Assembly (NCBI GenBank): GCA_964016885.1
Contig: OZ024743.1
Span: 154,628,001 to 154,692,000, forward strand
Source: Eledone cirrhosa
Taxonomy: Eukaryota
DNA length: 64,000 bases
Reading direction: 5' to 3'
Position 1 is the first letter of the stretch. Each line of letters opens with the position of its first letter. The notes under the pieces are model-generated. The model was not told the origin of the DNA and made no database searches. It worked only from the letters and a program-made list of their open reading frames with translations. The position numbers and the translations under genes were made by a program. This document shows, piece after piece, positions 6,536 through 63,310 of the stretch.

Positions 6536-6583
6536 GAAGTAAAAACGAAGTAGTTGCAGATGTTCAATTTTTTCAATAATAAT

Positions 6584-7666: not shown

Positions 7667-7740
7667 GCTGCCTGACGTTGTCGCAACAGTGGCACACAGA
7701 ACAGCGTGGCCACCGTCGCCATTGAAATATATATCACAGC
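7667..7740 (+). ncRNA. Type I hammerhead ribozyme with long stem II (CUGACGA mutated to CUGACGU)
   Basis: gcugc-CUGACGU...GAAA-uauaua-UC-acagc; palindromic stem III. Confidence 0.6.
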
Positions 7741-7789
7741 ATTAGTATTAAAAGACTTGTACATCTGAAACTACTTCGCTCTTCCTTAT

Positions 7790-8328: not shown

Positions 8329-8975
8329 TATATATATATTTACAAATAAGTACTCATAAATATACGCGTATACACAGGCACATAAAAAAGATCTCTACAG
8401 GCAGAAAATGCAGATAGGTAAGAGGTACTCACATAACCATAGTGGCCGTATTTGAGGTTGAGGAGGGGTGGGTGGGGTAGTAAGGAAGTAGAGGTGCTAA
8501 AAGGGGGAAGTCGTTTTTAGCCATCGGGCATTAACACTAGCTTAAGATATTTGATATTTGCAAAGTCCTTGTGCATGTAGTTCGGGCAGTGTTAAGAGTG
8601 TTTGTTCAGTAGCGGCCATTGGCGAATAACATTTCGTAGCTCTCTGAGATACAATGGTCGCAGCCCTTGTATCCTTCGTTGTAAGAACGCGCTTTCTGGA
8701 GTATTTTCTATTTAAGCGTGAAGGGGGTGGAGTTCCTTTTGAGGTCCCAAACGTAGGAGGAGAGTGTTGTCTGGTTTGATTTGTCCGGTCTTCTGAAGGA
8801 ATGGGTATGGGCATAACGACGGGTTTAAATGTATTGGAAGTCATGCCAATGTAAGTCTTTTTGTTATTGCAATCATCGGTGCCTGAGATGACATCGCATT
8901 TATATACGATATCAATTGTCAGGCATTTGTTTGAAGTGGGCAGGCTTCCTTATTTGGGCAATTACTTTGTTACTC
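8020..8975 (-). mobile_element. 5'-truncated PLE (GIY-YIG end plus 3' UTR)
   Basis: Minus-strand translation across frameshifts: CP..KCLTIDIVYKCDV..KTYIGMTSNTFK..YAHTHSF..TTLSSYVWDLK..CDHCISE. Confidence 0.8.
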
Positions 8976-9311: not shown

Positions 9312-9573
9312 ATAGAAGGATTTAAATGATACAGTTCAGTTAAAAGGAATTTATTGACACGTGTTTCAATAACATTTACATAACCAGAAAACAGCTGCTA
9401 TCTACAAAGTATTAATTATGCTGAAATGACAGTTGATAATAACATTGAAATATTGAGTGTCTGCATATTTAACACTTTGTAGATAGCAGCTGTTTTCAGG
9501 TTATGTAACTGTTATTGAAACACGTGTCAATAAATTCCTTTTAACTGAACTGCATCCATTTAAATCCTTCTAT
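9312..9573. repeat. Fold-back hairpin (arms 9312-9424 and 9460-9573) containing a 5'-clipped hammerhead
   Basis: Near-perfect inverted arms. Plus strand has UGA-AAUGACAGUU...AACUGUUAUU-GAAA-CACGUG-UC. Confidence 0.75.
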
Positions 9574-12145: not shown

Positions 12146-12396
12146 TGTATATACGTGTATATATATATATATACATATATATCTAAATATATATCTAATA
12201 TATGTAGAAATAAAGACAGTAAATTGTGTGTCTAAAATTACGAGGGTAGAAGTACCACATTGGTTTGATTAATTACAGGGTATCAATATGAGTTGGTAAC
12301 TCTATATTTTATTTGTATATATACATATACATATATGCATAATTGCAAACGAATCGAATATTATTATTAATATACGAAAACTCAGATGGCATTTAA

Positions 12397-12453
<57 letters not shown>

Positions 12454-12795
12454 TTATAAATATATATATATCTAATCTGAGTATTTCGAATTTTAATAAT
12501 ATCATTCGATTCGTTTGCAATTATGCACACAGCCTAATTTTTAAAGCCATGTCAGTAGAATGAACCCTTCATTCTTGATCTTGTGTTGGCATGTAAACAG
12601 AACTGCAGACACTAATGTTCCTGGGTATCACCCTTCATCACTACAGCTCACTGTTCACCTGCCAACTGTCAGAGCTAGTGAAAATATATGGTATTTCCTA
12701 AAATATACAGTGAGTGATCGGTTATCATTAATATTCGAAAGACTCACATTATATTTATTACATTCAGCCATGTAGAGCGAAAATTATATGTATAC

Positions 12796-16397: not shown

Positions 16398-19300
16398 GTT
16401 ATTATTATTATTATTACAGTTGCATTTATCTTGCTTTATGTTCATACGAGTTATCACCAAGTCACAACCAGTGACCTCAAGAGACAACAAGGTCCGCCAT
16501 GTTCAAGAAAGAACATACATACTCACACATGTATCTTTAATGTTCAGACTTGTGATGTACTTATATTGACAGAATCTTCCTTAGTATATGGGCAGATCCC
16601 ATTAGCATTATCTTTTGTATTTCTCCTATACACGGGTTTCCTGGTATTTGCGATAAGTAATCATTATACCCATTAGGTATCATTCCCAGAGCGCCTACAA
16701 CCACTGGTATCGTTTTAGTTCTCAATTTCCACATTTTTCCAATTTCTATCTCCAGGTCCTTATACTTGCTCAATTTTTCAAATGTTTTTATAGATACATT
16801 CTTGTCTATTGGAACGGACATATCAATTAGCAGGCATACCCTCTTTATAAAGTCCTTCAATATTATATCAGTGCTATTTGCATATATTTTTCGGTCTGTT
16901 TGGATGCTAAGGTTCCACTAGATGGAGATGTGATCTTTTTCAAGTATGGGAGGTGGTTGATGCTCCCACCAATTCTTTTGATGGGGCAGGTCAAAATGCT
17001 TACACATTATCCAATGTATGTATTGTGCAGCTCTGTCATGCCTGTTTAGGTATTCGGTTGAAGCTATAGGACTGCACATTGAAATTATATGGTCAATGGT
17101 CTCTGGTTGTTTTTTGCATACACGGCATAATGGGCTGCATCCGTTTTTTATTATGTTGGCTTGGTAATTTTTTGATGGCTGACACTGATCTTGTGCTGAT
17201 ATAATCAGTCCTTCAGTCTCCGATTTCAGTCCAGAGGATGCCAACCACTGATGGGTTAAAGTTTTGTCAACATCACGATTGTTAGCTCGCTCTGGGTATT
17301 TTCCATACAGAGGCTTTTCTTGCCATTTCTTAGCCAGTTTCTGTAGCAGTTCTTTCTTTGCAGTTACTTTTACCTGCTTTGCTTTTTCTGTGTTTTCCAT
17401 TTCAGCAGTAAATGGGACTTCTGAAATTTGTAGTCCATTACTGTATCTTTGTGCATCTTTTGTAATGGAATTTGATCTTTTGATGCTTTCGTGTTTCAAA
17501 ACGAGTTTGATCATCCAATCATATGATTCCCTTAGATATGTAGATAATCCAATTGTTGGAGTTTTCAACGCAATGTCTAACTGGATTAACCCACGGCCTC
17601 CTTCTTTCCTAGGGAGATATATTCTATCTATATCTGCCTTAGGGTGATGCATTCTGTGCATGGTTAAGAGTTTTCGAATTTTTGCATCGAGCCTACGGAT
17701 CTCTGTGCTTGACCAGTTGATGATATTGTAACTGTAGGTTACTACTGGTATGGCAAGCGTGTTTATGGCATCGATCCTATTCCTTGCATTCAATTCCGTT
17801 GTTAAGATTGCTCTTACTCTGCGGTAACATTCCTTCCTTATCCTTTCCCTCATTGTCGAGTGCTTGAATCCGTCTCCTTCACAAACACCTAGATATTTGT
17901 AAGATTTTTCTTGATCAAGTTCTCTTCTCACGTTCCCCCGTTCAAGATTAATGTCTGAACTCTTCAGCAGCTTTCCTCTGGTGAACGTTGCTTTGGCGCA
18001 TTTGTCTAGTCCAAACTCCATTTTAATGTCATCACTGAACTGCTCCACAGTGGATAATAGCCCTTACAATTGTTCATCATTTTTTGCAAATAGTTTCAGG
18101 TCATCCATGTAGAACAAGTAATTAATAGGTTTTGTCATAGACTTTATATCCATGTTTTGTTTCATTGAGCATTTTACTTAATGGTATAAGTGCGATGCAG
18201 AATAAAAGCGGTGATAAAGAGTCACTCTGAACAATTCCACAATTAATATGAACTTCTCCGGCTTCCAGTGATTTTGTTTCACTATTCAAAAGGAGTGTCG
18301 TTTTCCATGTCTTTATACTGAATGACAAAAACCTCCTGACAACGGGGGATATTTTGAAAATCTGTAAACATTTTTCAATCCAACTGTGTAGCAAACTATC
18401 GAATGCTTCTTTATAATCTATCCAAGCAATCGATATATTTTTATGTCTATTATGACAATCATCCAGTATCATTTTGTTAACCAGAAGCTGATCCTTACAG
18501 CCATATGAGCCTCGTTTACACCCTTTCTGCTCAATGGGAAATAGGTCATTTGTTATCAGGTGGTCATATGTGTATTCAGTTAGGACTGATGTTAAAATTT
18601 TATACATTGTGGTCAAGCAAGTTATCGGTCTGTAATTCTGGGGATTGTTTGTCTCATCATTCTTCGGAAGCAGGAATGTAATGCCGTTAACTAGCCATGA
18701 TGGTATCTTTTCTGGCTCCTTAACTATTTCATTGTAAAGTTGGGCTAACAGCTCATGAGACTCTGTGAAGGCATTTATCCAAAAGTTTTGTATTTTGTCT
18801 TTTCCTGGGGATTTCCATTTGCTGGTTTTTCTTAGAGCCAAGCGCAACTGTTCAACTGTTATATTTTCCCATATTTGTTCCTCAAGGTGAGCTGTATCTT
18901 TCATTTGTCTGTCTATCCATGGGGCATGTATATTATGAACTTCTTCTTCGGCCCAGATCTTTTCCCAGAATTCTTGCACTTCCTCCTTGGGTGGTATTGA
19001 TTTAGCAGTTATTGTTGACTTACCAATTGTTCTGTAGTAGTTTCTTTGGTTGTTTTTGAACATATTATTGTCCTTATAGAAGTTAGATCGTTTTTCAAAG
19101 CGCCTTATACGAGCAGCTTCGGCCGACACTTTTTGATTGATTATTTCTATCAGCATGTCTATGTCACATGTTGATTTTATACTGTACTTTTTTTTCAATT
19201 TTCCAAGTTTAGTTTGTTTAACATGTTCACCTACTTTATAGTTTGTTAACATTTCTATGTCAGATCGGAGAAGGTTTATTTGGCGATTGATGTTCTCTTG

Positions 19301-20390: not shown

Positions 20391-21333
20391 TTTTTAAATT
20401 GTTATTATCACGAGTGGTTCCTTAATGTGAGCATAGCGTGGCTTAAGAATGAAATTATGAATAATTGTCTCCACTCCAGGCACAAGGCTAGCATTCACCC
20501 AGTGCATTACAATAATATAATATACTTTTTGCTGTAGTTGCCTGTTATTGTTGTTGGCTATGTCGGTGGTGTTGACGGGGCTTTTTATATTGTTGATGAG
20601 AAAGGGGTGAGCCAGCAGTCCCATAGTTGTTGATGTTGACGTTTGGCCGGTGGCCAGGTCACTAAGTCAATCTATTTATATCTTTTGCTAGCCTCTCCCT
20701 TGTCTAGTGATATCGCCACCTTCCCCTTTCTCTCTCAAGTTAACAGGGTAATAGTGGTGGTAGCAATGAAGGAGATGTGGCGGGGGCGATGGGATAGTGG
20801 TAGCAATGATGGATGGGTTATCTATGAGTTTGTGTTCGTATGTTTAATATATATTGTGTTGACATATTCCCGTAAAATTGGAATTAAACATTTTGTTAAA
20901 ATTTGAGACAATTATAATAGTAATTATTATTATGATGCTGGGATTGATGGTGGTGGTGGTGAAATCACCGTTATCTGGCTGTTATATTTAGTGTGATGGG
21001 ATAGGTGGTGTATCAAGTTCCTGGTGTTGGTGAAATTGCTGTTATTTGGCTGTTTTATATAGTGGAGACAGAGGGTGTTTTCTTCCATTTATAACCATTT
21101 TCTTATTTTGAATACAAAATATATAATACAAAATTGAATATTTGAGCGATATAACAATATAATATGGATCCGAAATTTTATGGGACTTCATTCGGTGGTT
21201 TACGCAACATTTGTACTAAGAATTGTTATTTCACAATTGATTTAAATATGTTAAAAATAAAAAAACTTACGGGAGCGATTTCATGACCTTCTACCACCTC
21301 GTGCGTCTTCTTCCCTTATTCTTCTTATTCTTC

Positions 21334-23820
21334 TTATTATTATTACAGTTGCATTTATCTTGCTTTATGTTCATACGAGTTATCACCAAGTCACAACCAG
21401 TGATCTCAAGAGACAACAAGGTCCGCCATGTTCAAGAAAGAACATACATATTCACACATGCATATTTAGTGTTTAGACTTGTGATGTACTTATATTGACA
21501 GAATCTTCCTTAGTATATGGGCAGTTCCCATTAGTACTATATTTTGTATTTCTCCTATACGCGGGTATCCTGGGATTTGCGATAAGTAATCATTAGCTCC
21601 CTTAGGTATCATTCCCAGAGCGCCTACAACCACTGGTATTGTTTTAGTTCTCAATTTCCACATTTTTCCAATTTCTATCTCCAGGTCCTTATACTTGCTC
21701 AATTTTTCAAATGTTTTTATAGGTACATTCTTGTCTATTGGAACAGACATATCAATTAGCAGGCATACCCTCTTTTGAAAGTCTTTCAATATTATATCAG
21801 TGCTATTTGCATATATTTTTTGGTCTGTTTGGATGCTAAAGTTCCACAAGATTGAGATGTGATCTTTTTCAAGTATGGGAGGTGGTTGATGCTCCCACCA
21901 ATTCTTTTGATGGGGCAGGTCAAAATGCTTACACATTATCCAATGTACGTATTGTGCAGCTCTGTCATGGCTGTTTAGGTATTCGGTTGGAGCTATAGGA
22001 CTGCACATTGAAATTATATGGTCAATGGTCTCTGGTTGTTTTTTGCATACACGGCATAATGGGCTGCACCCATTTTTTATTATGTTGGCTTGGTCATTTT
22101 TTGTTGGCAGACATAATCTTGTGCCGATATAATCAGTCCTTCAGTCTCCGATTTCAGTCCAGAGGATGCCAACCACTGATGGGTTAAAGTTTTGTCAACA
22201 TCACGATTGTTAGCTCGCTCTGGGTATTTTCCATACAGAGGCTTTTCTTGCCATTTCTTAGCCAGTTTCTGTAGCAGTTCTTTCTTTGCAGTTACTTTTA
22301 CCTGCTTTGCTTTTTCTGTGTTTTCCATTTCAGCAGTAAATGGGACTTCTGAAATTTGTAGTCCATTACTGTATCTTTGTGCATCTTTTGTAATGGAATA
22401 TGATCTGTTGATTCTTTCGTGTTTCAAAACGAGTTTGATCATCCAATCATGTGATTCACTTAGATATGTAGATAATCCAATTGTTGCAGTTTTCAACGCA
22501 ATGTCTAACTGGATTAACCCACGTCCTCCTTCTTTCCTAGGGACATATATTCTATGTATATCTGCCTTAGGGTGATGCATTCTGTGCATGGTTAAGAATT
22601 TTCGAATTTTTGTATCGAGCCTACGGATCTCTGTGCTTGACCAGTTGATGACATTGTAACTGTAGGTTACTACTGGTATGGCAAGCGTGTATATGGCATC
22701 GATCCTATTCCTTGCATTCAATTCCGTTCTTAAGATTGCTCTTACTCTGCGGTAACATTCCTTCCTTATCCTTTCCCTCATTGTCGAGTGCTTGATTTCG
22801 TCTCCTTCACAAACACCTAGATATTTTTAAGTTTTTTCTTGATCAAGTTCTCTTATCACGTTCCCCCGATCAAGATTAATGTCTGCACTCTTCAGCAGCT
22901 TTCCTCTGGTGAACTAAGCTTTGGCGCATTTATCTAGTCCATACTCCATTTTAATGTCATCACTGAACTGCTTCACAGTGGATAATAGCCCTTGCAATTG
23001 TTCATCATTTTTTGCAAATAGTTTCAGGTCATCCATGTAGAACAGGTGATTAATGGTTTTGTCATAGACTTTATATCCATGTTTTGTTTCATTGAGCATT
23101 TTACTTAATGGTATAAGTGCGATGCAGTATAAAAGCGGTGATAAAGAGTCACCCTGAAAAATTCCACAATTAATATTAACTTCTCCAGGTTCCAGTGATT
23201 TTGTTTCACTATTCAAAAGGAGTGTTGTTTTCCATGTCTTCATACTTAATGACAAAAACCTCCTGACAACGGGGGATATTTTGAAAATCTGTAAACATTT
23301 TTCAATCCAACTGTGTGGAAAACTATCGAATGCTTTTTTATAATCTATCCAAGCAATCGATAGATTTTTGTGTCTATTATGGCAATCTTCCAGTATCATT
23401 TTGTTAACCAGAAGCTGATCCTTACAGCCATATGAGCCTCGTTTACACCCTTTCTGCTCAATGGGAAATAGGTCATTTGTTATCAGGTGGTCATATGTGT
23501 ATTCAGTTAGGACTGATGTTAAAATTTTATATATTGTGGTCAAGCAAGTTATCGGTCTGTAATTTTTGGGATTGTTTGTCTCATCATTCTTCGGAAGCAG
23601 GAATGTAATGCCGTTAACTAGCCATGAAGGTATCTTTTCTGGCTCCTTAACTATTTCATTGTAAAGTTGGGCTAACAGCTCATGAGACTCTGTGAAGGCA
23701 TTTATCCAAAAGTTTTGTATTTTGTCTTTTCCTGGGGATTTCCATTTGCTGGTTTTTCTTAGAGCCAAGCGCAACTGTTCAACTGTTATATTTTCCCATG
23801 TTTGTTCCTCAAGGTGAGCT
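21334..23820 (-). mobile_element. 5'-truncated second copy of R4/Dong family Y
   Basis: Highly similar to 16400-18893, with the same 3' UTR and (TAA)n tail. Confidence 0.93.
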
Positions 23821-26872: not shown

Positions 26873-26982
<110 letters not shown>

Positions 26983-27243
26983 AAAAAATGAAACAACATT
27001 TATTTTCTCACTCTTAGTACAGCTGTTACTTAAATATAAGTATGTATACGTACATACATATATGTATACAGACGTACAATAGCATGTATATATATACATA
27101 CATGCACACACATATATATATATGTACGTATATGTACCGAACATTTATTATAATGCTCGGTTCGTTTGTAAACAAACATCCCGAATTAAGCCGTACAATG
27201 TTTAATAACCATCATTGCACATTTGTTCAACACTGACAAAGGA

Positions 27244-27286
27244 ACGATGTACTAGTTTCAAGCTTATTTGCTATCGTCAGCATCGT
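27244..27286 (-). ncRNA. Minimal type I hammerhead ribozyme (intact)
   Basis: acgaug-CUGACGA-u.agc.aaauaa.gcu.u-GAAA-cuag-UA-caucgu: perfect 6-bp stem I, palindromic ACUAGU stem III, GUA cleavage triplet. Confidence 0.88.
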
Positions 27287-27671
27287 ATACCTTCCTGCCA
27301 GATGATTGCACGTCTGAAAGTATATACTTTTATTATGCATATTAATGGCTGAGCAGCCTAATTTGCATATCGAGTGAGTTAATCCACCGGGCGCACCGAA
27401 AACGATAAATGGAAAAACTGAAACGAAATTTCATTTATATCTTAGTATGGCTGTTACTTAAATATAAGTATGTATACGTACATACATGTATGTATACATA
27501 CGTACAATAGCATGTATATATATACATACATGCACACATATATATATATGTACGTATGGATTTACCGAACATTTATTATAATGTTCGGTTTGTTTGTAAA
27601 CAAACATCCCGAATTAAGGTATACATTGTTTAGCAACCAACGTTGCCCTTTTCTTCAACACTGACAAAGGA

Positions 27672-27714
27672 ACGATGTACTCGTTTCAAGCTTATTAGCT
27701 ATCGTCAGCACAGT
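27672..27714 (-). ncRNA. Minimal type I hammerhead ribozyme (second unit, weakened stems I and III)
   Basis: acugug-CUGACGA-u.agcu.aaua.agcu.u-GAAA-cgag-UA-caucgu. Confidence 0.7.
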
Positions 27715-28285
27715 ATACCTTCCTGCCAGATGATTGAACGTTTGGAAGTATATACTTTCCTTATGCATATTAATGGCTGAGTAGCCCAATTTGCATATCG
27801 AGTGAGTTAATCGGCTTGGCGCACCGAAAACGATAAATGGAAAAAATGAAACGAAATATATATATATATAACCAAATATTAGTATGATTCGTTGATTACT
27901 TAACGAATACCACATAGCTATGCCCAAATGTATATTCATGTATTTATCTATGCTTTATACTATAACAAATTATTCCCCTTAGTCTCTCTATCCTTGATCA
28001 ATTCTCTTTTGCTTTCTATACTTCTAGTAAGTATATTTTTTCCTCATCTGATTCTCTCTGTCTTTCTTCTTTCTTACTTTTTTCTTCAATAATTTAAATT
28101 ATTTGAATCTCTAACAGTTATGTATCTATTGTTAAGCCTTCTTACACGCACCCTCTGTATTATATGTAAATGTGTTCATGTCTCAATCTTAAGGTATATA
28201 ATTATTGAGTCTTGTCATATCATAGTCACTAACCATGACTGAACCATAACCATCTACTATGTCAGGGTATGTCATGAATCATCTT

Positions 28286-28350
28286 CTATTATCTGATGAG
28301 GACGTACTTTTGAAGATAGCTTAGTACTTCTGAAATATGTATAATAAAAT
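28286..28350 (+). ncRNA. Type I hammerhead ribozyme
   Basis: cuauuau-CUGAUGA-gga.guacu...aguacuucu-GAAA-uaugua-UA-auaaaau. Confidence 0.75.
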
Positions 28351-28392
28351 ATACTAGATCACACGAATGTCTATTTTTGTTAACATTTTGAA

Positions 28393-28455
<63 letters not shown>

Positions 28456-28595
28456 AAGGTTAAACAAGGTTCACTCAATAAATCAAAGAATAACGTTTTA
28501 CAATAGATTGGAAGCACTCCACAGTTATGGTTTTCCGGGGTTATTAAGATTAATTCAAGATATTAACAAAACTAGACATTCGTGTGATCAAGTAT

Positions 28596-28660
28596 ATGCT
28601 ATTATACATATTTCAGAGGTACTGAGCTATCTTCAACAGTACATCCTCATCAGATAAAAT
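28596..28660 (-). ncRNA. Type I hammerhead ribozyme
   Basis: auuuuau-CUGAUGA-gga.guacug...caguaccucu-GAAA-uaugua-UA-auagcau. Confidence 0.75.
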
Positions 28661-28820
28661 AAGATGATGCATGACATACCCTGACTAAGTAGATGCTTAA
28701 GATGCAGTCGTGGCAGTGAATAAGATATAATAAAACTCAATATGTATATACCTTAAGATTGAGACATAAAAATGTACATATAATACAGAGGGTTCGTGTG
28801 AGAAAGCGTATAAAAATACA

Positions 28821-28933
28821 TAATTGTTTCTACTTTTTGGCACAAAGCCAGCAATTACCCAGTGCATTACTGGTACTTTATTTTATCGACCCCGTAAAGA
28901 TGAAAGGCAAAGTCAACCTCGGCGGGATTTTAA
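28821..28933 (-). mobile_element. SINE family 1, 5'-truncated
   Basis: Reverse complement of the family 1 core and tail. Confidence 0.85.
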
Positions 28934-29347: not shown

Positions 29348-29906
29348 AATCTATTTCTGGTTGATATGTAATGCTCAGATCCATTTATTGGAATCTTTGA
29401 GCTTATTCTACAGTAGATATAGCGTATGTCTCTCAGACATTACAACCCTTAATTTTACTTTTGGATATATATACGGCCCCTTGATTGTTGCGCTAATTCA
29501 GTTGAATAGACTCGGCTGCTATTTCTGGCTGTCAATGGTCCTATTCACGCCACTGGGATGGCGTTGTGCAATGTGTCTATTTTTTTTTTAATGCAATGCG
29601 TGGTTCGAGTCATTCACAGATTTGCATTTGCTTTGTAAACGCAGATAGTTATCTTCTCCTTTGGTGACCATCCGTGAATTTGACTACTGAGAATTACGGA
29701 TTAATTGGTGAAATATATTTCTTACTTAAAGAAATATATACAAAGGATATTAATCATTTTAAAATGTAACTATATTTGAAGTTCCAGTTAAACTTTAATT
29801 AGTTATCTACCTAGCTATGCGTGCTTACATTCTTTACAAATTATTCCATGTGATTGTTTCATATGTTTATTTTATATATATATATATGTTAATCTTTTTC
29901 TAGTTG

Positions 29907-30020
<114 letters not shown>

Positions 30021-30059
30021 GATATTAATACATGAAAACTATATTTATAAATACATATT

Positions 30060-30124
30060 TATTTCATTATACATATTTCAGGGATACCAAATTAAATCAT
30101 GGTAAGCCTTCATCAGACAAAATA
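30060..30124 (-). ncRNA. Type I hammerhead ribozyme
   Basis: uauuuugu-CUGAUGA-agg..uacca...ugguaucccu-GAAA-uaugua-UA-augaaaua. Confidence 0.8.
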
Positions 30125-30383
30125 CAATATATAACAGTTTTACAAATAAGCTTTGACGTACCCTTTTAAAATGCAACAATTATTTTTGGAAGCCATCTGG
30201 ATAGTGAATTGTTTATATTATTTTAATAAGTCTTAGTGTTAAGGACAATTAGAAAAAGACGGAGAGAAAGAAAAAAGACGGAGAGAGAGAAAAAAACGGG
30301 AGAGATAGTAAGATAGTGGTTTCTCAAATTTTAGTATATTGATCTTAAGTTTTAAACTAAACATATAATCATTATTAAACAAT

Positions 30384-30566
30384 GGCGGTGAATTGGCAGT
30401 ATCGGTAGAGGGTCGGACACCTTGCTTTGACACTTAGAGTTACGGTTCTGAGTTCAAATCCCGCCGAGGTTTATTTTGCCTTTCATCCTTACGGGGTCGA
30501 TAAAAATAAAGTACCAATAATATACTGGGTAATTGCTGGCCTTGTGCCAACAGTAGAAACAATTTT
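30384..30566 (+). mobile_element. SINE family 1, full length
   Basis: GGCGGTGAATTGGCAG head, GAGTTCAAATCC B box, core and tail. Confidence 0.85.
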
Positions 30567-31092
30567 TAATTTCTCATATTATATATTTATGTCCTATTCA
30601 TGAATATTAATATTTATATTGTTATTATTCATTTCATATAAATTGTTAACTCAACTTAATATGACATGGCGTAAAGTTTTCATTATCTGCCCCTCTCTCT
30701 ATATATTATTTCTCTCTCTTGAGTTTTTCTATCTGTCTGATGACTTGATATCTCTCTGTTGCTTTCCTCTGTTTTTCTTATTTCTTCCTTTTTTCTTTTT
30801 TCTTTCTTTCCTCCTGTCTTTATTTATCTCTCTCTTTTTTCTCCATGCATTTTTCTCTCTCCGATATTTCTCCACGTTTCTTTCTTTTTTTTTCTTTTTC
30901 TTTTTTATCTCTCTCTCCGTTTTTTTTCTCTCTCTCCGTCTTTTGTCTTTCTCTCCCTATTTTTCTAATTGTCCTTAACACTAAGACTTATTAAAATAAT
31001 ATAAACAATTCACTATCCAGATGGCTTCCAAAAATAATGCTTGCATTTTAAAAGGGTACGTCAAAACTTATTTGTAAAACTGTTATCTATTG

Positions 31093-31157
31093 TATTTTGT
31101 CTGATGAAGGCATACAATGATTTAATTTGGTATCCCTGAAATATGTATAATGAAATA
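31093..31157 (+). ncRNA. Type I hammerhead ribozyme
   Basis: 8-bp stem I (uauuuugu/augaaaua with GU pairs), CUGAUGA, agg.auac/guau.ccu stem II, GAAA, uaugua, UA. Confidence 0.82.
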
Positions 31158-31285
31158 AAAATGGTTTTATAAATATAGTTTCCATTTATTAATATCGTAT
31201 ATCTACTCCAAATAATTGTCGAGTTCTTTATATCAGTTATAAAAATATTTACTTGTTGTATCCCAACAATTTTAAATAGAACTTT

Positions 31286-31387
<102 letters not shown>

Positions 31388-32509: not shown

Positions 32510-33372
32510 TATATAAAGAAAAGATGAATATAAAATGAAAGTGCATTTATAAAGGAATTTATTAGGTATTGACATTTGTTTCTGTAACAGACGGAATACC
32601 TATGTATCGCTGCTTGCGTAATCATATAATCTTAGCAAGTATTCGATAGCAAATGTATAATCAGTTGTAACTTCTTCAGATATATTGGATAAATTGGAAA
32701 AAAATCAGAAAAATTGAAGTATTTATATTAGTTGTAAGAAAGGAAGAAGAGAGGGGATAGAATATGACAGATGGCAATTCAATTTACTGGTAAACAAGTA
32801 TATAGAAGATTTTTAATGAGAATACAATGAGTATATGGCTTATTTTATCTGAATAAGAATTTTGGGAGTGCCTATTTTAATCTATATTTGACCAATTGAA
32901 CAATGGACAGGGCTGGTCGTTTGGTGTAGTAGTATTAATACATATATAAAGTGTCAATTAAGGAAGAGGGAGATTTTCACTGCTACTGTATAACAACAAT
33001 GCTGGTAGCCTGCTAGTATATGCATTAGGGAAATTAAGAATTCTCATTTTATCTATAGCAGTTTATATTAAATGGTAAAGAATAGAAGAGTTGATAGAAT
33101 TAAGACTAATAGAGAATGTTAATATGTATTTTGACAATCAAACGGAGATGGAGACAGGTGTTCAATCCTGGTAGCGTTTGTAATATGAAAATGTAGATTT
33201 CAAGCGATGGTTACAGTATAACGATCGCTCTATTCTGTTATTTAATAAACTATTTATGGATTTCATAATACAAAATAATTCCATATAACACAATTTACCA
33301 AATTCCTGTCCTTGTTTATGCAGAGGCTTGTACTATTATATCCCATTTTAGGTTAAATTGTTGGTTAATTTC
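32510..33372 (-). mobile_element. 5'-truncated PLE (end of GIY-YIG plus 3' UTR) with a degenerate long-stem-II hammerhead at 32566-32685
   Basis: FNLKWDII..KLCYMELFCI..LLNNRIE..CNHRLKSTFSYY aligns with the C-terminus of PLE-B; CUGAAGA...~90 nt...GAAA-caaaug-UC in sense orientation. Confidence 0.7.
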
Positions 33373-33585
33373 GCGCAGCTGCCAAGCCTTGTCTGCGAGT
33401 GTTGTTACATAACGCTGTTGTTACCCGATAACACATGAAAACCAGCGTTATGTAACAACACTATAGAAAGACAGTTCATCGCCAACAATTACGAGATCCA
33501 ACCACGAAACAGATACCACTCAGTGCACATCTAGACATTTGCGCAAGTAATAAGACACCCGAATTCCATGTCTTCCCATTTTACC

Positions 33586-35008: not shown

Positions 35009-35495
35009 ATATTGTTATATTTGGGGAGGGTCATATTTGCGTAATATTGCCAGAATTAATAACAGAACACACTCACTGTTTGGTTGGTTTTCGCTTCTCG
35101 CTGTCTTTTATATATATATATCTGCGATCTAACTTACTCGGTCCTCAATGTTGCCATTTTCATATTGACTGTTATTGTGTGTTTTAGCCGTTTAGCCGAT
35201 GTTGCAGATGTGCAACGAAAGATTTATGTAAACTATATATATATGTGTTTGTCTATATTGTATCTGTATTATTTTTGACCGCCGGTCAGTCAATGGCAAC
35301 ATTGAGGACCGAGTAAGTTAGATCGCAGATATATATATATAAAAGACAGCGAGAAGCGAAAACCAACCAAACAGTGAGTGTGTTCTGTTATTAATTCTGG
35401 CAATATTACGCAAATATGACCCTCCCCAAATATAACAATATCTGTTTCGACACACGATTTCATATAAAAAACCTCGCAAAACTAATTCATCGCCG

Positions 35496-35567: not shown

Positions 35568-36476
35568 AGAGAGAGAGAGAGAGAGATATTTATTAAAATA
35601 ACAGATTAAAGTTTAAGCAAATAATCGCTGCTTTCACCCTCAACGGGATCTTCTGAAACTAACAAACTCAATCTGTGAACGCAGAAGTGAATATTTCAAA
35701 ATACGTTGCAACCGCAGGAAGACAGGAAGACGATACTTTGGTTCGTGGAAACGTTCCCTGGCAAAGAACAGAAAAAAAACGAATATATTGCGTCATTATT
35801 TGGAGCGGTGAAAAACAATTACACGCAAAGAGAAAACCACGTTTACGGTATAAAAGATGTCGTAGACTAATATTCTATTTGGTGGTTCATAGAGACGTTC
35901 TCTGGCAATGAACGGCAAAAAAGGAAGATAATACGTCATATGTGGGGCGTGGATGAACAATTGCACGCAAAGACAAAACCACGTAAATGGTATAACTGAA
36001 GTCGTAGACTAAAATTCTAACTAGGAAACCGAATGATTCTCGGCTTCAGAGTTAAGAATAAAGTAAATAAAATACAGAGGTAATTGAAATTAAATAAATA
36101 CATACACGCATCCAAATGCGTACATACACAAGCATACGCGAAAACACTCGCCATAGGTATACAAATACACGCACATATAAATATGTGTGTGTGTGTATGT
36201 GCGTGTCTACAAATAATTAAATAAACGTATATAAATTAATAAATACGTATATAACAAGCGCACACACATACATACATGTAAATACACAAATGTTCGGAGA
36301 CTACGTCAACCAAAACACGAAGTACACATATACACACACCCTACATACGTACGAACCCGCATACTCACATAGACGCAAAACTCACGTATACACATCTCTT
36401 TGGATTTTAGTCTTCAAATTTATTATTATTACTATTTGGCTCCCTCGGTTGAGCAATCTATTGACTCATATTCATC

Positions 36477-38566
36477 ATGCAGAAACAACATCTGAATATT
36501 TCTACAAATAACATACCCGTACCAAGCCAGAAAACATACCTAAAACTCCTGATACATAAAACAGACGCGTTCATTAAAAGGTTGCGATGGCGTGCTTTTT
36601 ATTTAGATAATCAGCGAAAAGCAGACAACAAACAGGATAAATGTGGGTTTAAAACCTATAATAACCCTCCCTGTAACGCAGCATTCGAAAATGATATCTT
36701 GGAACTGATACGGAGTATCAAATTTCGGAATAGGAGCAATTCTTTCCAGCAGTACCTGAATAATAGAATTCCTTCTATTAAGGAATCTAATGCCGTGCAC
36801 GTCCAATCCGACAAAACTGGCAAACTATATCAAGTGGAGCGCAGTAATTACCATCAATTACAAGATAATGCTGTAACTAAGGATTACCGTAAAACTAATC
36901 GGTGCGTCACTAATGAGATCAACGATGCTGTGTTTAAAATCACCTCTGATCTCAACAGCCTGGACCGGACCGAACCTCTGGACCCTATATCTCCCCACTT
37001 TACCCTGAAGGATCACAAATCCAATTTTCCGAATATTTATTACGGCTTATTAACTCTACGTATTCCGATTTAGGTAGACTTAGTAAAAGGATTCCTGATA
37101 GAATTATACCTGGAATTAGAAGTTTGGCCCCTCTTGCACTGTGGAACAATTCTTTCGCGGTGATTGATTGGTTCAACGGCATATGCAACAAGGAACATTG
37201 CCCTTTTATCCAATTCGACATCAATAATTACTACTCCTCCATCACTTTACCACTTCGCCTTAGATCTATCAATTTCGCTAAAACACTCACAGTGGTTAAG
37301 AATTTCGAAGTTGATGTCATCCTCAATGCCCGTAAGTCGGTGATTAATTTCGACGACTCTATTTGGATTAAAAAAGATAATAGTACCCCATTCGACGTGA
37401 GTATGGGCGCCAGCGATTCTGCGGAGGTTACTGTTCTTATCGGCCTTTTCCTTCTTTTCCCTATCAAGGACGTATTCCCCAATGTGGGCGGTGGTTTGTA
37501 CCGTCATGATGGTCGTTTGACCATGACTAAGTGCGGCCCACGTGCTTGCAACAGGTTCAGAAAAAAACTCACAGACTTCATTAAAGGCTTTAACCTCTCT
37601 ATACAGGTTGGGGCCAACCTCTCGGTCGTTAATTACATCGACCCTCTATTTATCGAATGGCTTGTATTACCCGTATAGAAAGCCGAATGATATGCTTAAT
37701 TACATAAGTAAGCATTCTAACTATCCTGTCAGCATAACCAAGAACCTGGTAAGAAACGTTTCTTTGAGGCTTTCCCGTCTATCTACTAACGAGCATATTT
37801 TCAACGACCATTCCACATATTACAATGAAGCTCTTGTTCGGAGTGGATTTGTCGATAAGGTAGCATATACAGAGTACGAGAATAGACCTAGAAGAAATAG
37901 ATCCCGACGCATTATATGGTATAACCCACCATATAATATGGAGGTAGCCACCCCATTAGCTAAGATCTGTCTCTCCCTTATTACGAAGCATTTCCCCCTA
38001 CACATAAACATAGTAACATTTTTAATAGAAATACTATTAACATTTCTTACTCTACGACTTCAGCTTCTAATTTAGCTAAACTACCTAGCCGTAGGAACAC
38101 GTGCAACCCTGTAGTTAGTACTAACTGTAATTGTAGGAATCGAGTTGACGGCCGCCTATCCGTGAAATGCCTCTCTAGTAACATTGTCTACAAATGTAAG
38201 GTTGAAACACCCACGCCCCGTAGGGCCTACATAGGGTTAACCGCCAATAGATTCAAGCAGCGTCTTTACATGCATACCCATTCTTTTCCTTACCCTCTAA
38301 GAAAGAATATGACGTCACTTTCAGCTTATATCTGGAGTCTAAAAGACAACCACACCCAATATAAGTTACACTGGGAGATCCTAGCTAAGGTTAGATCGTA
38401 TAACGGAAATAAAAGACGATGTGACATCTGCGCTGCTGAGGCCCTGGAAATACTCTACGCCACAGACCACATCTTAAACAAACAATCTGAGGCAATTTCG
38501 GCTTGTAAACATAAATTGCACAAAACTTTCCTGTATTACAGCCCCACATTATACCCTAACGGATAG
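36477..38566 (+). pseudogene. Frameshifted PLE RT plus GIY-YIG polyprotein
   Basis: SDKTG, LKDHK, FDINNYYSSI, FDVSMGASDSAEV, GLYRHDG, CNCRNR, IVYKCK..AYIGLTANRFKQRLYMH, CDIC..E, LNKQSE..CKH. Confidence 0.92.
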
Positions 38567-39490
38567 TACGATCTATACGCGGATATTTTACGTCTTGATG
38601 AGGTAGCTAAGTATATGTTATGTTTATACCATTACTTATTTGTATAGGTAAGTATATATTACCTGTATGTTTTGAGAGGGTACGTATACTTTCTCGTACA
38701 TATATTTGATTGTATATCTTATGGCGTATATTTTATATATTCTGGTACATAGGCTTTTGGTTATGTGTATACGTGAGTTTTGCGTCTATGTGAGTATGCG
38801 GGTTCGTACGTATGTAGGGTGTGTGTATATGTGTACTTCGTGTTTTGGTTGACGTTGTCTCCAAACATGTGTGTATTTACATGTAGGTATATGTGTGCGC
38901 TTGTTATATACGTATTTATTTATTCATATACGTTTATTTAATTATTTGTATAAACGCACACACACACATATTTATATGTGCGTGTATTTGTATACCTATG
39001 ACGAGTGTTTTCACGTATGCTTATGTATGTACGTATATGGATGCGTGTATGTATTTATTTAATTTCAATTGCCTCTGTATTTTATCTACTTTATTCTTAA
39101 CTCTGAAGCCCAGAATAATTCGGTTTCCTAGTTAGAATTTTAGTCTACGACTTCAGTTATACCATTTACGTGGTTTTGTCTTTGCGTGCAATTGTTCATC
39201 CACGCCCCACATATGACGTATTATCTTCGTTTTTTCCCGTTCATTGCCAGAGAACTTCTCTATGAACCACCTAATAGAATATTAGTCTACGACTTCTTTT
39301 ATACCGTAAACGTGGTTTTCTCTTTGCGTGTAATTGTTTTTCACCGCTCCAAATAATGACGTATTATATTCGTTTTTTCCCGTTCTTTGCCAGGCAGCGT
39401 CTCCACGAACCAAAGTATCGTCTTCCTGTCTTCCTGCGGTTGCAACGTTTTTTGAAATATTAATTTCGGCGTTTACAGATTGAGTTTGTT

Positions 39491-39541
39491 AGTTTCAGAA
39501 GATCCCGTTGAGGGTGAAAGCAGCGATTCTTTGCTTAAACT
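39491..39541 (+). ncRNA. Variant hammerhead (CAGAAGA core) at the PLE-B 3' end; homologues at 13154-13204(-), 35610-35660(-), 57821-57871(+)
   Basis: aguuu-CAGAAGA-u.ccc.guuga.ggg.u-GAAA-gca...ugc-UU-aaacu; all three stems form. Confidence 0.65.
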
Positions 39542-39543
39542 TA

Positions 39544-43721: not shown

Positions 43722-43878
43722 AATATGGTTTTATAAAGATTTTTCCATTTATTAATATTATCGATCTTATATTCCAGAAAAATCTATTGAATGCTTCTAA
43801 TCTATTATAAATTGACTTTGTTGAATAATCAACAAAACAAATAACCCATTGTTTATAAATATATATATATGTATATAT

Positions 43879-44079
43879 ATAGGAGAAAGCATGACACCGA
43901 TGGCAGAGCTCAAGCCGTTTCGACGGTTATTTCTGGACGCTTTAGTCAAGAAATATCCATCGAAACGGCTTGAGCTCTGCCATCGCGGTCATACTTTCTC
44001 CTATTACCCACTCTACTACTTTAAGTATTGAGTACTCTGGTGCGTTATGGTCCACCTGGTTCCTTACCACAACTCCTTC

Positions 44080-44081
<2 letters not shown>
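43879..44081 (+). mobile_element. ~200-bp fold-back mini-element in (TA)n (arms 43879-43938 and 43945-44004, plus tail)
   Basis: Same family as 62063-62257. Confidence 0.85.
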
Positions 44082-44129
<48 letters not shown>

Positions 44130-44135
<6 letters not shown>

Positions 44136-44784
44136 TATGTATACGTACATACATATATGTATATAGACTTACATTAGTATGTATACATACATGCACACAC
44201 ATATATATATATATGTACATATAGATTCACCAAACATTTATTATAATGCTCGGTGTGCTTGTAATCAAACATCCCGTATTAAGCCGTAGTGTATAGCAAC
44301 CACCGTTGCTCGTTTGTTCAACACTGACAAAAGAATTCTGTACTAGTTTCAAGATTGTTAGATATCGTCAGCAACGTATACCTTCCTGCCAGATAGTTGA
44401 ACGTTCGAAAGTATATACTTTCCTTATGCATATTAACGTCTGAGTAGCCCAATTTGCATATCGAGTGGGTTAATCGGCCGGGTGCACCGAAAACGATAAA
44501 CGAAAAAAATGAAACGAAATTTCATTTCCCACTCTTAGTACGGCTGTTACTTAAATATAAATATGTATACGTACATACATATATGTATACAGACGTACAG
44601 TAGTATGTATATATACATACATGCACACATATATATATGTACGTATGGATTCACCAAACATTTATTATAATTCTCGGGGTGTTTGTAAAGAAACATCCCG
44701 TATTAAGCCGTAGTGTCTAGCAACCACCATTGCTCGTTTGTCATTGTTGAACACACGAGCAACAGTGGTTGCTAGACACTACGG
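44130..44784 (-). mobile_element. Second locus of the ~425-bp retrozyme-like unit (1.5 units, HHR at 44335-44377, terminal fold-back 44708-44784)
   Basis: Aligns with 26981-27858; internal period 424 bp (TATTAAGCCGTAGTGT at 44277 and 44701). Confidence 0.85.
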
Positions 44785-54629: not shown

Positions 54630-57600
54630 TAGTCTTCAAATGTATTATTATTACTATTTGGCTCCCTCGGTTGAGCACTCTATTCATCATGCAGAAACAA
54701 CATCTGAATATTTCTACAAAGAACATACCCGTACCAAGCAGGAAAACAGACCTAAAACTCCTGATACAGAAAACAAACGCATTCATTAAAAGGTTGCGTT
54801 GGCGTGCCTTTTATTACGATAATCAGGGGAAAGAAGACAATAAACAGGATAATTTTGGGTTTAAAACCTATAATAACCCTCTGAGCAACCCAGCATTGCT
54901 ACCCTTCGAAAATGATGTCTTGGAACTCATACGGAGTATCAAGTTTCGGAATAGGAGCAATTCCTTCCAGCAGGACCTGAAGATTAGAATTCGTTCTATT
55001 AAGGATGCTAATGCCGTGCACGTCCATTCCGACAAAACTGGCAATCTATATCAAGTGGAGCGCAGTACTTACCATCAACTGCTACATAATGCTGTAACTA
55101 AGGATTACCGTAAAAATAATCGGTGCGTCACTAGTGAAATCAACGATGCTGGGTTTAAAATCACCTCTGATCTCAACATCCTGGACCGGACTGAACCTCT
55201 GGACCCTATTCCCCACCTTACCCTAAATGATCACAAATCCAATTTTCCAAACAACCCCTCTATTCGGCTTATTAAACCTACGAAGTCCGATTTAGGTAGA
55301 CTTAGTAAAAGAATTATTGATAGAATTATACCTGAAATTAGAAGTTTGGCCCCTCTTGCACTGTGGAACAATTCTTTCGCGGCGATGTATTGGTTCAACG
55401 GCATATGCAACAAGGAACATTGCCCTTTTATCCAATTCGACATCAATAATTACTTTCGTCCATCACTTTACCACTTCTCCTTAGAGCTATCAATTTCGCT
55501 AAAACACTCACAGTGGTTAAGGATTTCGAAGTTGATGTCATCCTCAATGCCCGTAGGTCAGTGATTAATTTCGAAGACTCTATTTGGGTTAAACAATCTA
55601 ATAGTACCCCATTCGGCGTGAGGATGGGTGCCAGCTATTTAGCGGAGGTTACTGATCTAATCAGCCTTTTCCTTCTTTTCTCTATCCAGGAAGAAATCTC
55701 CAACGTGGGCGGTGGTTTATACCGTGATAATGGTCTTTTGACCATAATAAAGTGCGGCCCACGTGCTTGCGACAGGTTTAGAAAAGAACTCACAGCCTTC
55801 TTTAAAGGATTCAACCTCCCCATACAGGTTGAGGCCAACCTATCCTTCGTTAATTACCTCGACGTTACACTCAATTTATCGAATGGCTTGGACTACCTGT
55901 ATAGAAAGCCGAATGATATGCTTAATTACATAAGTAAGAATTCTAACCATCCTACCAGCATAACGAAGAACCTGGTAAGAAAAATTTCTTTGAGGTTTCC
56001 CCTCTATCTACTAACGAGCATATTTTCAATTACCATTCCACATATTACAATGAAGCTCTTGCTCGGAGTGGATTTGTCGATAAGGTAGTATATACAGAGT
56101 AAGAGAATAGGCCTAGAAGAAATAGATTCCGACGCATTATATGGTATAACCCATCATATAATATGGAGGTGGCCACACCATTAGCTAAGACCTTTTTCTC
56201 CCTTATTATGAAGCATTTTCCACCTACACATAAATATAGTAAACTTTTTAATAGAAATACTATTAAAATTTCTTACTCTATGATACCTAACCTTGCACAT
56301 AACATCACAGCTTCAAATTTAGCTAAACTACCTAGCCGTAGGAAGACGTGCAAACCTGAAGTTAGTACTAACTGTAATTGTAGGAATCGGGTTGTCTGCT
56401 CCCTATCCGGGAAATGCCTCTCTAGTAACATTGTCTACAAATGTAAGGCTGAAACACCCACGTCCCGTAGGGCCTACATATGGTTAACCGCCAATAGTTT
56501 CAAGCAACGTCTTTACATGCATACCCATTCTTTTCGTTACCCTTTAAAAGGAATCTGACGTCACTTTCAGCTTATATCTGTAGTCTAAAAGTCAACCACA
56601 CCCAATCTAAGTTACACTGAGAGGTCCTAGCTAGGACTAGATCATATAACGGAAACAAAAGACCATGTGACCTCTGCGGCCCTGAAAATACTCTACGCCA
56701 AAGACCACATCTTAAACAAAAAATCTGAGGCAATTTCGGCTTGTAAAGATAAATGGCACAAAACTTTCCTGTATTACAGCCCCACATTATACCCTAACGC
56801 AAGTACGAACTATTCGTGACTATTTTACGTCTTGATGTGTTAGTTAAGTATATGTTATGTTTATACCATTACTTATTTGTACAGTTAAGTATATATTACC
56901 TGTATGTTTTGTGAAGTTACGTATACTTTCTCGTACGTATATTTGATTGTATATGTTATAGCGTATATATTATATATTCTGGTACACATGATTTTGGTTA
57001 TGTGTATACGTGAGTTTTGCGTCCGTGTGAGTATGCGGGTTCGTTACGTATGTAGGGTTTGTGTATATGTGTACTTCGTGTTTTTGTTGACGTACATCTC
57101 CGAACATATGTGTATTTACATGTAGGTATGTGTGTGCCCTTGTTATATACGTATTTATTTATTTATAAACGTTTATTTAATTATATGTATACACGTACAC
57201 ACACACACATATATATATATATAGTTTTTTTTCATATTATTTCCATGTGTATTTCGTTTATACTTTCGTATGCGTGTCTGTACATGCGTTGCGCGTGGGT
57301 TCTGTATGTGCGTGCGTGTTTTTTATTGTGTACGTGCGTGTATTCGTAAACCTATGGCGAGTGTTTTCGCGTATGCTTGTGTATGTACGTATATGGATGC
57401 GTGTATGTATTTATTTAATTTCAATGACCTCGGTATTTTATTTACTTTATTATTAACTCTGAAGCCGAGAATCATTCGGTTTCCTAGTTAGTATTTTAGT
57501 CTACGACTTCAGTTATACCATTTTCGTGGTTTTGTCTTTGCGTGCAATTGTTCTCCACGCGCCACATATGACGTATTATCTTCGTTTTTTGTCGTTCATT

Positions 57601-62022: not shown

Positions 62023-62062
<40 letters not shown>

Positions 62063-62063
<1 letters not shown>

Positions 62064-62252
62064 CGAAGGAAACGTGGTTAGGGAACAGATGGACCATAAC
62101 GCACCAAAGTACTCAATACTTAGGGTAGTAGAGTGGGTAATAGGAACGAGTAGGACCCGAAGGCTGAGCTCAAGCCGTTTCGACGGCTAATTCTGGACTC
62201 CAGAATTAGCCGTTGAAACGGCTTGAGCTCAGCCGTCGGGGTCCTACTCATT

Positions 62253-62257
<5 letters not shown>
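62063..62257 (-). mobile_element. Fold-back mini-element in (TA)n (arms 62140-62197 and 62199-62257, 1-nt loop)
   Basis: Same family as 43879-44081, opposite orientation. Confidence 0.85.
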
Positions 62258-62329
<72 letters not shown>

Positions 62330-62879: not shown

Positions 62880-63310
62880 ATTATGAAAGGGTTGGACTCC
62901 ATGCTTTGCAGCAAAGAGTTACGTCCCTTCATGGTCTGATTTAAAATCCCGCCGAGGTTAACTTTGCCTTTCGTCCTTACGGTGTCGATAAAATAAAGTA
63001 CCAGTAATACACTAGGATATGTGCTGGCCTTGTGCCATAAGCAGAAACAATTATGAAAACAATAACAACGATAATACTGTTCAGTATTATCGTTGTTGTC
63101 AACAGTTGCCATATCTATAGTATTAATAATTGTTTCTACTGTTGGCACAAGGCCAGCAATTGCCACCGTGTATTACTGGTACTTTATTTTATCGACCCCG
63201 TAAGGATGAATGGCAACGTTAACCCCGGTGGGATTTGAACTCAGACCATAAAAGGCAGTAACTCTGTGCTGCAAAGCATGGCGTCTGACCCTCTACGGAT
63301 ACTGCCAAGC
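62880..63310. mobile_element. Two SINE family 1 copies tail-to-tail (62880-63053 plus, 63128-63310 minus)
   Basis: Core and tail on both strands. Confidence 0.85.

What the first reader, a model, noticed from the sequence alone, without database searches (positions are those of the whole stretch)
43879..44081. 200-bp hairpin mini-element whose palindrome seems rebuilt at each insertion (partner at 62063-62257)
Seen: two diverged copies in opposite orientation, both in (TA)n, both folding back at nearly the same apex (CTGGA) with the short arm ending at the same CCTAT. Copy-specific variants are mirrored in both arms (GGAGAAAG.ATGAC versus GGAA.GAGTAGGAC). The arm contains a hammerhead 3' half, GAAA-CGGC..GCCG-UC (62215-62237), with the apex where stem II would be and no CUGAnGA box. 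Inference: cDNA snaps back on HHR stem II and self-primes, giving a reproducible palindrome; alternatively the arms are homogenised after insertion.
Basis: partly seen in the sequence, partly recalled or inferred. Interest (0 to 1): 0.72.

Follow-up and report, generated by a model that had tools for sequence, protein, structure and literature searches.

The report
Twin-primed Penelope stubs, not snap-back
The two hairpins are stub-sized, head-to-head insertions of a Penelope-like jumping gene with tens of thousands of copies in this genome, and their mirror arms were likely written by two separate copying events that ran off the likely start of the element's RNA and were then joined, rather than by one copy folding back on a ribozyme stem.

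Summary
Real, but a known kind of product. Both hairpins are minimal insertions of a Hydra-type Penelope-like element (PLE). The genome holds 50,438 exact arm hits. A near-complete parent has a 719-aa RT/GIY-YIG ORF and a hammerhead with a U3-A8 core.

The palindrome is rebuilt at each insertion: 119 of 122 junctions differ. Snap-back on stem II does not fit. The arms end independently, the tailless arm often reaches further 5' than the arm it would be copied from (17 clean cases of 122), and only 1 of 122 fits the stem II product. Arms match by subfamily, not by locus, so they are not homogenised.

Arm ends pile against a sharp edge at a pyrimidine-A step that splits the ribozyme. This is likely the RNA's 5' end (inferred; no raw RNA reads; cap-G test inconclusive). 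Both copying starts are a TAT just before a same-shaped bulged hairpin.

The inverted-copy-plus-tail layout is published. The two-primer run-off reading was not in the papers I searched, but this scan reached it before on other families of this genome.

The parts
43879..43938 (-). Copy A, tailless arm (S): element sense strand from +2 down to CCTAT; inferred second cDNA primed at the TAT at the foot of hammerhead stem I
43939..43939 (.). Copy A junction: one G found in neither parent arm at that place
   Evidence: (row L001)
43940..44082 (+). Copy A, tail-bearing arm (T): from -4 through stem II 3' strand, GAAA (43962-43965), stem III with palindromic loop, cleavage-site C at 43984 (preceding G decayed to A), stem I 3' strand, CCTAT (44000-44004) and 78-nt tail
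44010..44033 (+). Predicted bulged hairpin (4 bp, 2-nt bulge, 4 bp, 6-nt loop) just 3' of the S start; a same-shaped hairpin follows the T start in the parent
43860..43878 (.). (TA)n target, left of copy A
44083..44133 (.). (TA)n target, right of copy A
62063..62199 (-). Copy B, tail-bearing arm (T): sense strand from +1 to the tail end
62199..62257 (+). Copy B, tailless arm (S): from +3 to CCTAT; holds the hammerhead 3' half at 62215-62237; 1-nt overlap with the T arm at 62199
62031..62062 (.). (TA)n target, left of copy B
62258..62327 (.). (TA)n target, right of copy B

Best explanation
Each hairpin is a minimal head-to-head insertion of a Hydra-type Penelope-like retrotransposon into (TA)n, made of one tail-bearing and one tailless arm, likely written as two separate cDNAs primed from the two cut target strands that likely ran off the 5' end of the element's RNA and were then joined end to end. 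Steps: (1) shown: the target is (TA)n and both arms start at a TAT of the element, 80 nt apart, so the 78-nt tail is the distance between two starts. (2) Inferred: the element protein nicks both strands, and each 3' end anneals to UAU beside a bulged hairpin and primes reverse transcription, as Poseidon from Anolis does in vitro (PMC11167929). (3) Inferred: the RNA begins in the upstream pseudo-LTR at a pyrimidine-A step (-5/-4, possibly also +1). That is about 45 nt downstream of the ribozyme's 5' box, so this half-ribozyme could not cut and copying runs through the cleavage site and off the end after about 65 or 145 nt. (4) Shown as pattern, inferred as cause: the two ends are trimmed and joined by 0-7 nt overlaps or short inserts. 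(5) Speculative: long and tandem copies arise when the enzyme instead jumps to the RNA's 3' end.
For: Parent L226 has an inverted truncated copy, a pseudo-LTR whose tail runs into the 5' UTR and a 719-aa ORF, and a second pseudo-LTR ending at CCTAT; both window copies map on it at 82-93%. 122 of 125 head-to-head pairs from 197 apex-unbiased loci are one T plus one S arm, with 119 of 122 junctions distinct; overlap in 61, blunt in 18, insert in 43. The S arm reaches at least 20 nt further 5' than T in 23 pairs (17 with a join of 2 nt or less), and T stops inside the tail in 12 (9 clean). The offset is symmetric (31 vs 28) and unrelated to an age proxy (rho -0.02, n=117). Two of 85 pairs carry different subfamily signatures in their two arms (L236, L238). 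Ends: 207 of 366 arms at -5..+8, 11 at -10..-6, 43 longer, 105 shorter. In copy A's subfamily 11 arms end exactly on the A at -5, against 1 at -4 and 1 at -6. Genome-wide, a 19-mer just 3' of the edge has 49,954 hits and one at the 5' box 5,286. Both starts are TAT followed within 3-5 nt by a same-shaped bulged hairpin of different sequence. Precedent: two internal starts define the tail and both strands are extended (PMC11167929); the Penelope promoter with Inr lies in the pseudo-LTR (PMC2377424).
Against: No RNA evidence for the start: only contigs were served, and the two RNA-guess runs laid gave nothing. The non-templated G test is inconclusive: 7 of 19 vs 21 of 90, p=0.25, and 7 of 20 vs 8 of 66, p=0.038, two tests with sites chosen after looking. 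The genome listings show G in 17 and C in 12 of the first 100 (A not asked) and G in 3 of 100. The edge coincides with the tip of a small hairpin inside stem II, so a stall is not excluded. T and S ends correlate weakly (rho 0.30). Mixed pairs are rare and could be recombinants. End calls are uncertain by about 2 nt, three overlaps of 14 are palindromic mis-calls, and 116 arms stayed unpaired (28 of them long). The 5' box count misses subfamilies with other boxes, so the tenfold step is an upper estimate.
Confidence: 0.62

Rival explanations
1. Two primers as above, but the pile-up marks a stall or a cut at the tip of the extended stem II on a longer read-through RNA, not a transcription start.
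For: The edge at -4/-5 sits at the top of the 3' strand of a 7-8 bp hairpin in stem II in both subfamily groups; the cap-G test is inconclusive.
Against: The stronger 9-bp helix at +7..+16 and stem III are mostly passed. The sharp peak in copy A's subfamily is 2 nt into the loop, on an A after a pyrimidine. Polymerases usually pause on entering a stem (own knowledge).
Confidence: 0.2
2. One reading: one cDNA snaps back on stem II and copies itself. Self-priming was also proposed for Penelope palindromes in PMC3846280, on an antisense template.
For: The apex lies at the stem II tip; both arms nearly always share a subfamily (47 of 53 by strict call); one pair, L204, fits the predicted product.
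Against: Only 1 of 122 fits. The tailless arm extends beyond the arm it would be copied from in 17 clean cases, including young copies (L211, L227, L230, L305, L374). Offsets are symmetric. Two mixed-subfamily pairs exist.
Confidence: 0.09
3. Symmetric hairpins are made first and later eroded by deletions at the apex or homogenised by gene conversion.
For: Palindromes are unstable (own knowledge); weak T-S end correlation; 11 mirrored changes.
Against: Asymmetry does not rise with age. One-arm changes outnumber mirrored ones 120 to 11, and several mirrored ones are minor-subfamily signatures. Arms are no closer to their partner than to other loci.
Confidence: 0.06
4. An ordinary inherited hairpin element (MITE-like or a fixed non-autonomous master) copied whole.
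For: 21 of 29 best hits of copy B share its junction.
Against: Those hits were chosen for likeness and carry both tail variants (12 and 9). Unbiased junctions are 119 of 122 distinct. No column separates S from T arms (smallest p 0.2 of 49 columns). Arms continue into an RT-encoding parent.
Confidence: 0.03

Closest known systems
Hydra clade of C-terminal EN+ Penelope-like elements, e.g. Hydra-1_Obim (Craig et al. 2021, PMC8557442; section 11, passages and supplement rows seen)
   Same: RT then C-terminal GIY-YIG; RWR for RWK, DKT, divergent RT4, CxCX5C linker, no CCHH, CxxC and CxH around E/N; (TA)n target
   Different: A different family: U3-A8 ribozyme core with a 4-5 bp helix III versus the listed canonical motif of Hydra-1_Obim; two exact-word searches of the supplement did not find it (line breaks could hide a hit); unit about 3.1 kb; stubs dominate
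PLE insertions with an inverted 5'-truncated copy and a one-sided tail (PMC8557442 Fig. 2 legend; PMC3846280 passages)
   Same: Head-to-head inverted copy, tail on one end only, partial tandem pseudo-LTR in L226
   Different: Tail is 78 nt rather than 30-40; both arms are reduced to 60-145 nt; the self-priming reading of PMC3846280 does not fit these junctions
Poseidon of Anolis in vitro (Frangieh et al. 2024, PMC11167929; parts 1-2 of 4 read)
   Same: Two internal RT starts whose distance is the tail; AT-rich target; both strands cut and extended; ribozyme cleavage not needed in vitro
   Different: Starts here lie in the 5' UTR at TAT with 3-nt homology to the target, whereas that paper reports starts inside the ORF at non-homologous sites; the parts read do not treat how inverted copies form
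PLE hammerheads, including the U3-A8 variant of Schistosoma Cercyon elements (Cervera and de la Pena 2014, PMC4209133; parts 1-2 of 4 read)
   Same: Type I topology, U3-A8 covariation, G10.1-C11.1 pair, palindromic loop III; close opposite-strand pairs noted there
   Different: Stable helix III and a long extended helix II here; the stubs hold only the 3' half
L1 twin priming and retroviral strong-stop DNA (recalled, not from a call)
   Same: Two target ends prime on RNA; a short cDNA runs to the RNA 5' end
   Different: Here both cDNAs copy the same stretch; no tRNA primer; strand transfer is not shown

Membership tests
Hydra-clade PLE | Single ORF, RT followed by C-terminal GIY-YIG | tested here: met
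   719-aa ORF with YRDD and VIY...YIG. Pfam gave GIY-YIG at E=0.012, below cut-off, for the L181 fragment and nothing for the whole L226 frame; atlas neighbours carry HTH_animal, GIY-YIG and RVT_1
Hydra-clade PLE | RWK motif, DKG changed to DKT, divergent RT4(B) | tested here: met
   RWR (conservative variant), DKT, MGATDSA
Hydra-clade PLE | CxCX5C linker; CCHH absent; CxxC and CxH beside E and N | tested here: met
   CNCPDRSIC; one Cys between VIY and YIG; CNLC...E...N...CKH
Hydra-clade PLE | Insertion into (TA)n | tested here: met
   281 of 330 tail ends are followed by TATATAT exactly, most others by near variants
Hydra-clade PLE | Canonical hammerhead core in the pseudo-LTR | tested here: not met
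   Core is the U3-A8 variant in 60 of 65 parent arms, C3-A8 in 4, U3-G8 in 1; hence filed as a variant
Hydra-clade PLE | Length under 3 kb | tested here: inconclusive
   One unit measured, about 3.1 kb in L226, which has an internal 427-nt length difference between its repeats
Hydra-clade PLE | Phylogenetic placement of RT | not tested
   No tree was built; supplement proteins were only viewed
EN+ PLE insertion structure | Inverted 5'-truncated copy and tail at one end only | tested here: met
   122 of 125 pairs are T plus S; long pairs 125 bp to 2.8 kb apart
Type I hammerhead ribozyme (parent) | Three helices around the core, free N7, G10.1-C11.1, NUH site | tested here: met
   N7 is A, C, G or U across subfamilies with fixed neighbours; the fold is obtained with the core held open and is also the free MFE in 2 of 6 representatives
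Type I hammerhead ribozyme (parent) | Self-cleavage | not testable with these tools
   Needs an in vitro assay
Type I hammerhead ribozyme (window copies) | Both core boxes present | tested here: not met
   5' box and stem I 5' strand absent; no hammerhead among the 150 of 206 Rfam rows shown
Non-LTR retrozyme | Non-coding head-to-tail monomers, each with a whole hammerhead | tested here: not met
   Head-to-head stubs with half a ribozyme and a coding parent
MITE or inherited hairpin element | Fixed inverted termini and fixed interior shared by copies | tested here: not met
   119 of 122 junctions differ; the ends differ by the tail

The most novel reading that the evidence does not exclude
Penelope-like elements replicate through a target-primed strong-stop step. 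A dimeric enzyme starts twice at twin bulged hairpins near the capped 5' end of an RNA whose start splits the hammerhead, makes two short cDNAs, and must jump to the redundant 3' end left by the whole ribozyme to copy the body. Failed jumps give tens of thousands of palindromic stubs; repeated jumps give the pseudo-LTR tandems. That would make the class a mechanistic bridge between target-primed and LTR retroelements.
Probability: 0.3. Interest if true: 0.75.

Novelty: new variant of a known kind. Interest (0 to 1): 0.45.

Why it matters
How Penelope-like elements make their inverted and tandem ends is called open in PMC8557442. This family supplies at least about 25,000 natural products (half of 50,438 arm hits). 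They argue against self-priming, point to two primed cDNAs, and name exact testable sites: two TAT starts, twin hairpins and an RNA edge inside the ribozyme. A near-intact ORF is present for biochemistry. The element is also a large source of perfect hairpins and of short repeats that could be misfiled as MITEs or microRNA precursors. As a discovery it is modest: the layout is published and this scan noted the same reading on other families.

Tried and rejected
A canonical CUGANGA box upstream of GAAA gave only 43 genome hits, mostly junction accidents or chimeras; two of them (L073, L082) led to the U3-A8 parent.

Rfam showed no hammerhead among the rows listed, only microsatellite-driven microRNA matches. 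PDB sequence search gave nothing.

My first idea, that the left arm is the parent's natural stem II 5' strand, was rejected. The apparent left-arm T/right-arm G asymmetry was query bias: no column separates the arms in unbiased loci. My first clade call, Neptune, was replaced by Hydra. My first placement of the RNA start at the A of AGTCC alone was revised to -5/-4.

RNA evidence: only contigs were served and 16 of the 20 rows had a share of 0.04; two such runs laid gave no cover, and two runs of unknown kind repeat the genomic depth step. This is no evidence on transcription.

A-to-G editing marks: none convincing in 164 arm segments; the two larger T-to-C clusters come from 1-nt misalignments.

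Parsers had an off-by-one tail pattern and are superseded. One tally returned empty and was redone.

Literature searches for a strong-stop or two-primer model of PLEs returned no paper stating it in the listings and passages seen. Subscription papers are missing from the library and bioRxiv supplements are closed, so absence from print is not shown.

Full report
Observation. Each is a hairpin of about 60 bp per arm plus a 78-nt unpaired tail. The hammerhead 3' half at 62215-62237 is as described and no 5' box is present. I number positions from the A of AGTCC (+1) and call the tail-bearing arm T and the tailless arm S. Copy A joins S at +2 to T at -4 across one extra G; copy B joins T at +1 to S at +3 with a 1-nt overlap.

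Family. The window's genome is 3.0 Gb. A 28-letter arm pattern has 50,438 exact hits against 0 for the reversed control, so there are at least about 25,000 insertions.

Parent. A search for a canonical 5' box failed (43 hits), but two hits showed the upstream sequence. It occurs in thousands of longer copies, often as minus/plus pairs 125 bp to 2.8 kb apart with unequal truncation. Locus L226 is near complete: an inverted truncated copy, a pseudo-LTR whose tail runs on into a 5' UTR and a 719-aa ORF, and a second pseudo-LTR ending at CCTAT. The protein has the Hydra-clade marks listed in PMC8557442 section 11: RWR for RWK, DKT, a divergent RT4, a CxCX5C linker and no CCHH. No tree was built. 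The layout of inverted truncated copy plus one-sided tail is that paper's Fig. 2.

Ribozyme. The parent holds a whole type I hammerhead with core UUGANAA. Position 7 is A, C, G or U across subfamilies while its neighbours stay fixed (60 of 65 arms U3-A8). This variant is known from Schistosoma PLEs (PMC4209133). All 4 parent arms of copy B's subfamily read C3-A8, a mismatch predicted to be poorly active. Helix III has a palindromic loop. Helix II is long and ends in a small hairpin whose 3' strand is -3..+4. Cleavage was not tested.

Is the palindrome rebuilt each time? Yes. I parsed 197 loci chosen by patterns 3' of the apex (64 by a generic pattern, 133 by the two window subfamilies; 13 overlapping duplicates dropped). 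Of 125 head-to-head pairs, 122 are one T plus one S, and 119 of 122 junctions are distinct: 61 overlap, 18 are blunt, 43 have inserts, some copied from nearby sequence. A further 116 arms were unpaired. No column separates S from T arms. An S arm differs from its own T by 2.84 positions of 49, from other loci of its subfamily by 2.67-2.74 and from other subfamilies by 7.2. Changes are one-sided 120 times and mirrored 11 times. So the arms are two fresh copies of one subfamily source, neither inherited as a hairpin nor homogenised later.

Snap-back or two primers? Snap-back from the T cDNA needs S to be a sub-copy of T; snap-back from S cannot make the tail. Yet S reaches at least 20 nt further 5' than T in 23 pairs, 17 of them with joins of 2 nt or less. 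In 12 pairs T stops inside the tail (9 clean), so it holds none of the sequence in S. Where both arms reach the ribozyme, S is longer in 31 and T in 28. Asymmetry does not track age and is present in copies with near-unchanged tails. Only L204 fits a fold on the stem II hairpin. L236 and L238 carry different subfamily signatures in their two arms (2 of 85), which suggests two RNA molecules at least sometimes, though recombination could also explain them. Both starts are a TAT, matching the (TA)n primer, 80 nt apart. Each lies 3-5 nt before a hairpin of the same shape and different sequence (the second hairpin is seen intact in 2 of 4 read-through copies and altered in 2). This agrees with the in vitro finding that a Poseidon protein extends both target strands from two internal starts that bound the tail (PMC11167929).

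Why the same apex? Of 366 arms, 207 end at -5..+8, 105 further 3', only 11 at -10..-6, and 43 are long. Genome-wide counts drop about tenfold across the edge (an upper estimate). In copy A's subfamily 11 arms end exactly on the A at -5. The edge falls on pyrimidine-A steps that resemble an initiator (consensus recalled), and Penelope's promoter with an initiator lies in its pseudo-LTR (PMC2377424 passages). I therefore read the edge as the RNA's 5' end. This is inferred. The cap-G test is inconclusive (p=0.25 and p=0.038 in two versions; listings are mixed), no raw RNA reads were available, and the edge also coincides with the tip of the stem II hairpin. A start there would leave the upstream ribozyme without its 5' box, which would explain why cDNAs cross the cleavage site. 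It also implies, speculatively, that long copies need a jump to the RNA's 3' end or a circular or read-through template; circles were proposed in PMC4209133.

Papers seen. PMC8557442: passages, section 11, supplement rows. PMC11167929 and PMC4209133: parts 1-2 of 4. PMC3846280 and PMC2377424: passages. bioRxiv 10.64898/2026.07.22.740005: part 1 of 5. Others: listings only. Searches found no statement of a two-primer run-off model; PMC3846280 favours self-priming. Earlier notes of this scan reached the same reading for other families of this genome; these are unchecked and not independent support. A look-up by sequence found none on this family.

Verdict. A real and very abundant feature of a known class: a new family with a variant ribozyme. 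Identity as a PLE stub about 0.97; two-primer joining about 0.8; the edge as a transcription start about 0.65. Interest 0.45.

Noticed in passing
window 36477-38563 (+), 54689-56801 (+), 2443-4416 (-); fragments 8621-8940 and 33165-33417 (-): Three other broken Hydra-type PLE ORFs, 34-53% identical to the L226 protein; the first sits inside long inverted repeats at about 35609-39542.
   Followed up: partly
window 6537-7787, 9312-9573, 12336-12527, 28113-28828, 29858-31387, 35009-35441, 44708-44784, 62888-63292: Other close inverted repeats of unrelated families, several beside (TA)n; they may be stubs of other PLE families.
   Followed up: no
window 26975-27857 and 44103-44741: A 428-bp tandem unit; a further copy starts in the (TA)n directly right of copy A.
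   Followed up: no
window 16399-18427 and 21328-23354: Direct duplication with a period of about 4.93 kb at 94-99% identity.
   Followed up: no
L167, L170, L279, L285, L315, L352: Recurrent 22-nt loss between two 6-nt direct repeats that removes GAAA and helix III from one arm; likely template slippage during copying.
   Followed up: partly
L163, L275, L278, L295: Parents of copy B's abundant subfamily carry a C3-A8 mismatch in the ribozyme core (4 of 4 arms), suggesting that cleavage is dispensable for spread.
   Followed up: partly
L189:4754-6934 (+); L213 minus strand; L208 minus strand: A 727-residue open frame of another Hydra-type element, a 532-residue frame of another RT type and a 452-residue Hydra-type frame lie beside or between family copies.
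   Followed up: no
L190:252-1271 (+): A 340-residue cysteine-rich repeat frame, likely a host exon with von Willebrand C-like repeats (name recalled), about 2 kb from a long copy.
   Followed up: no
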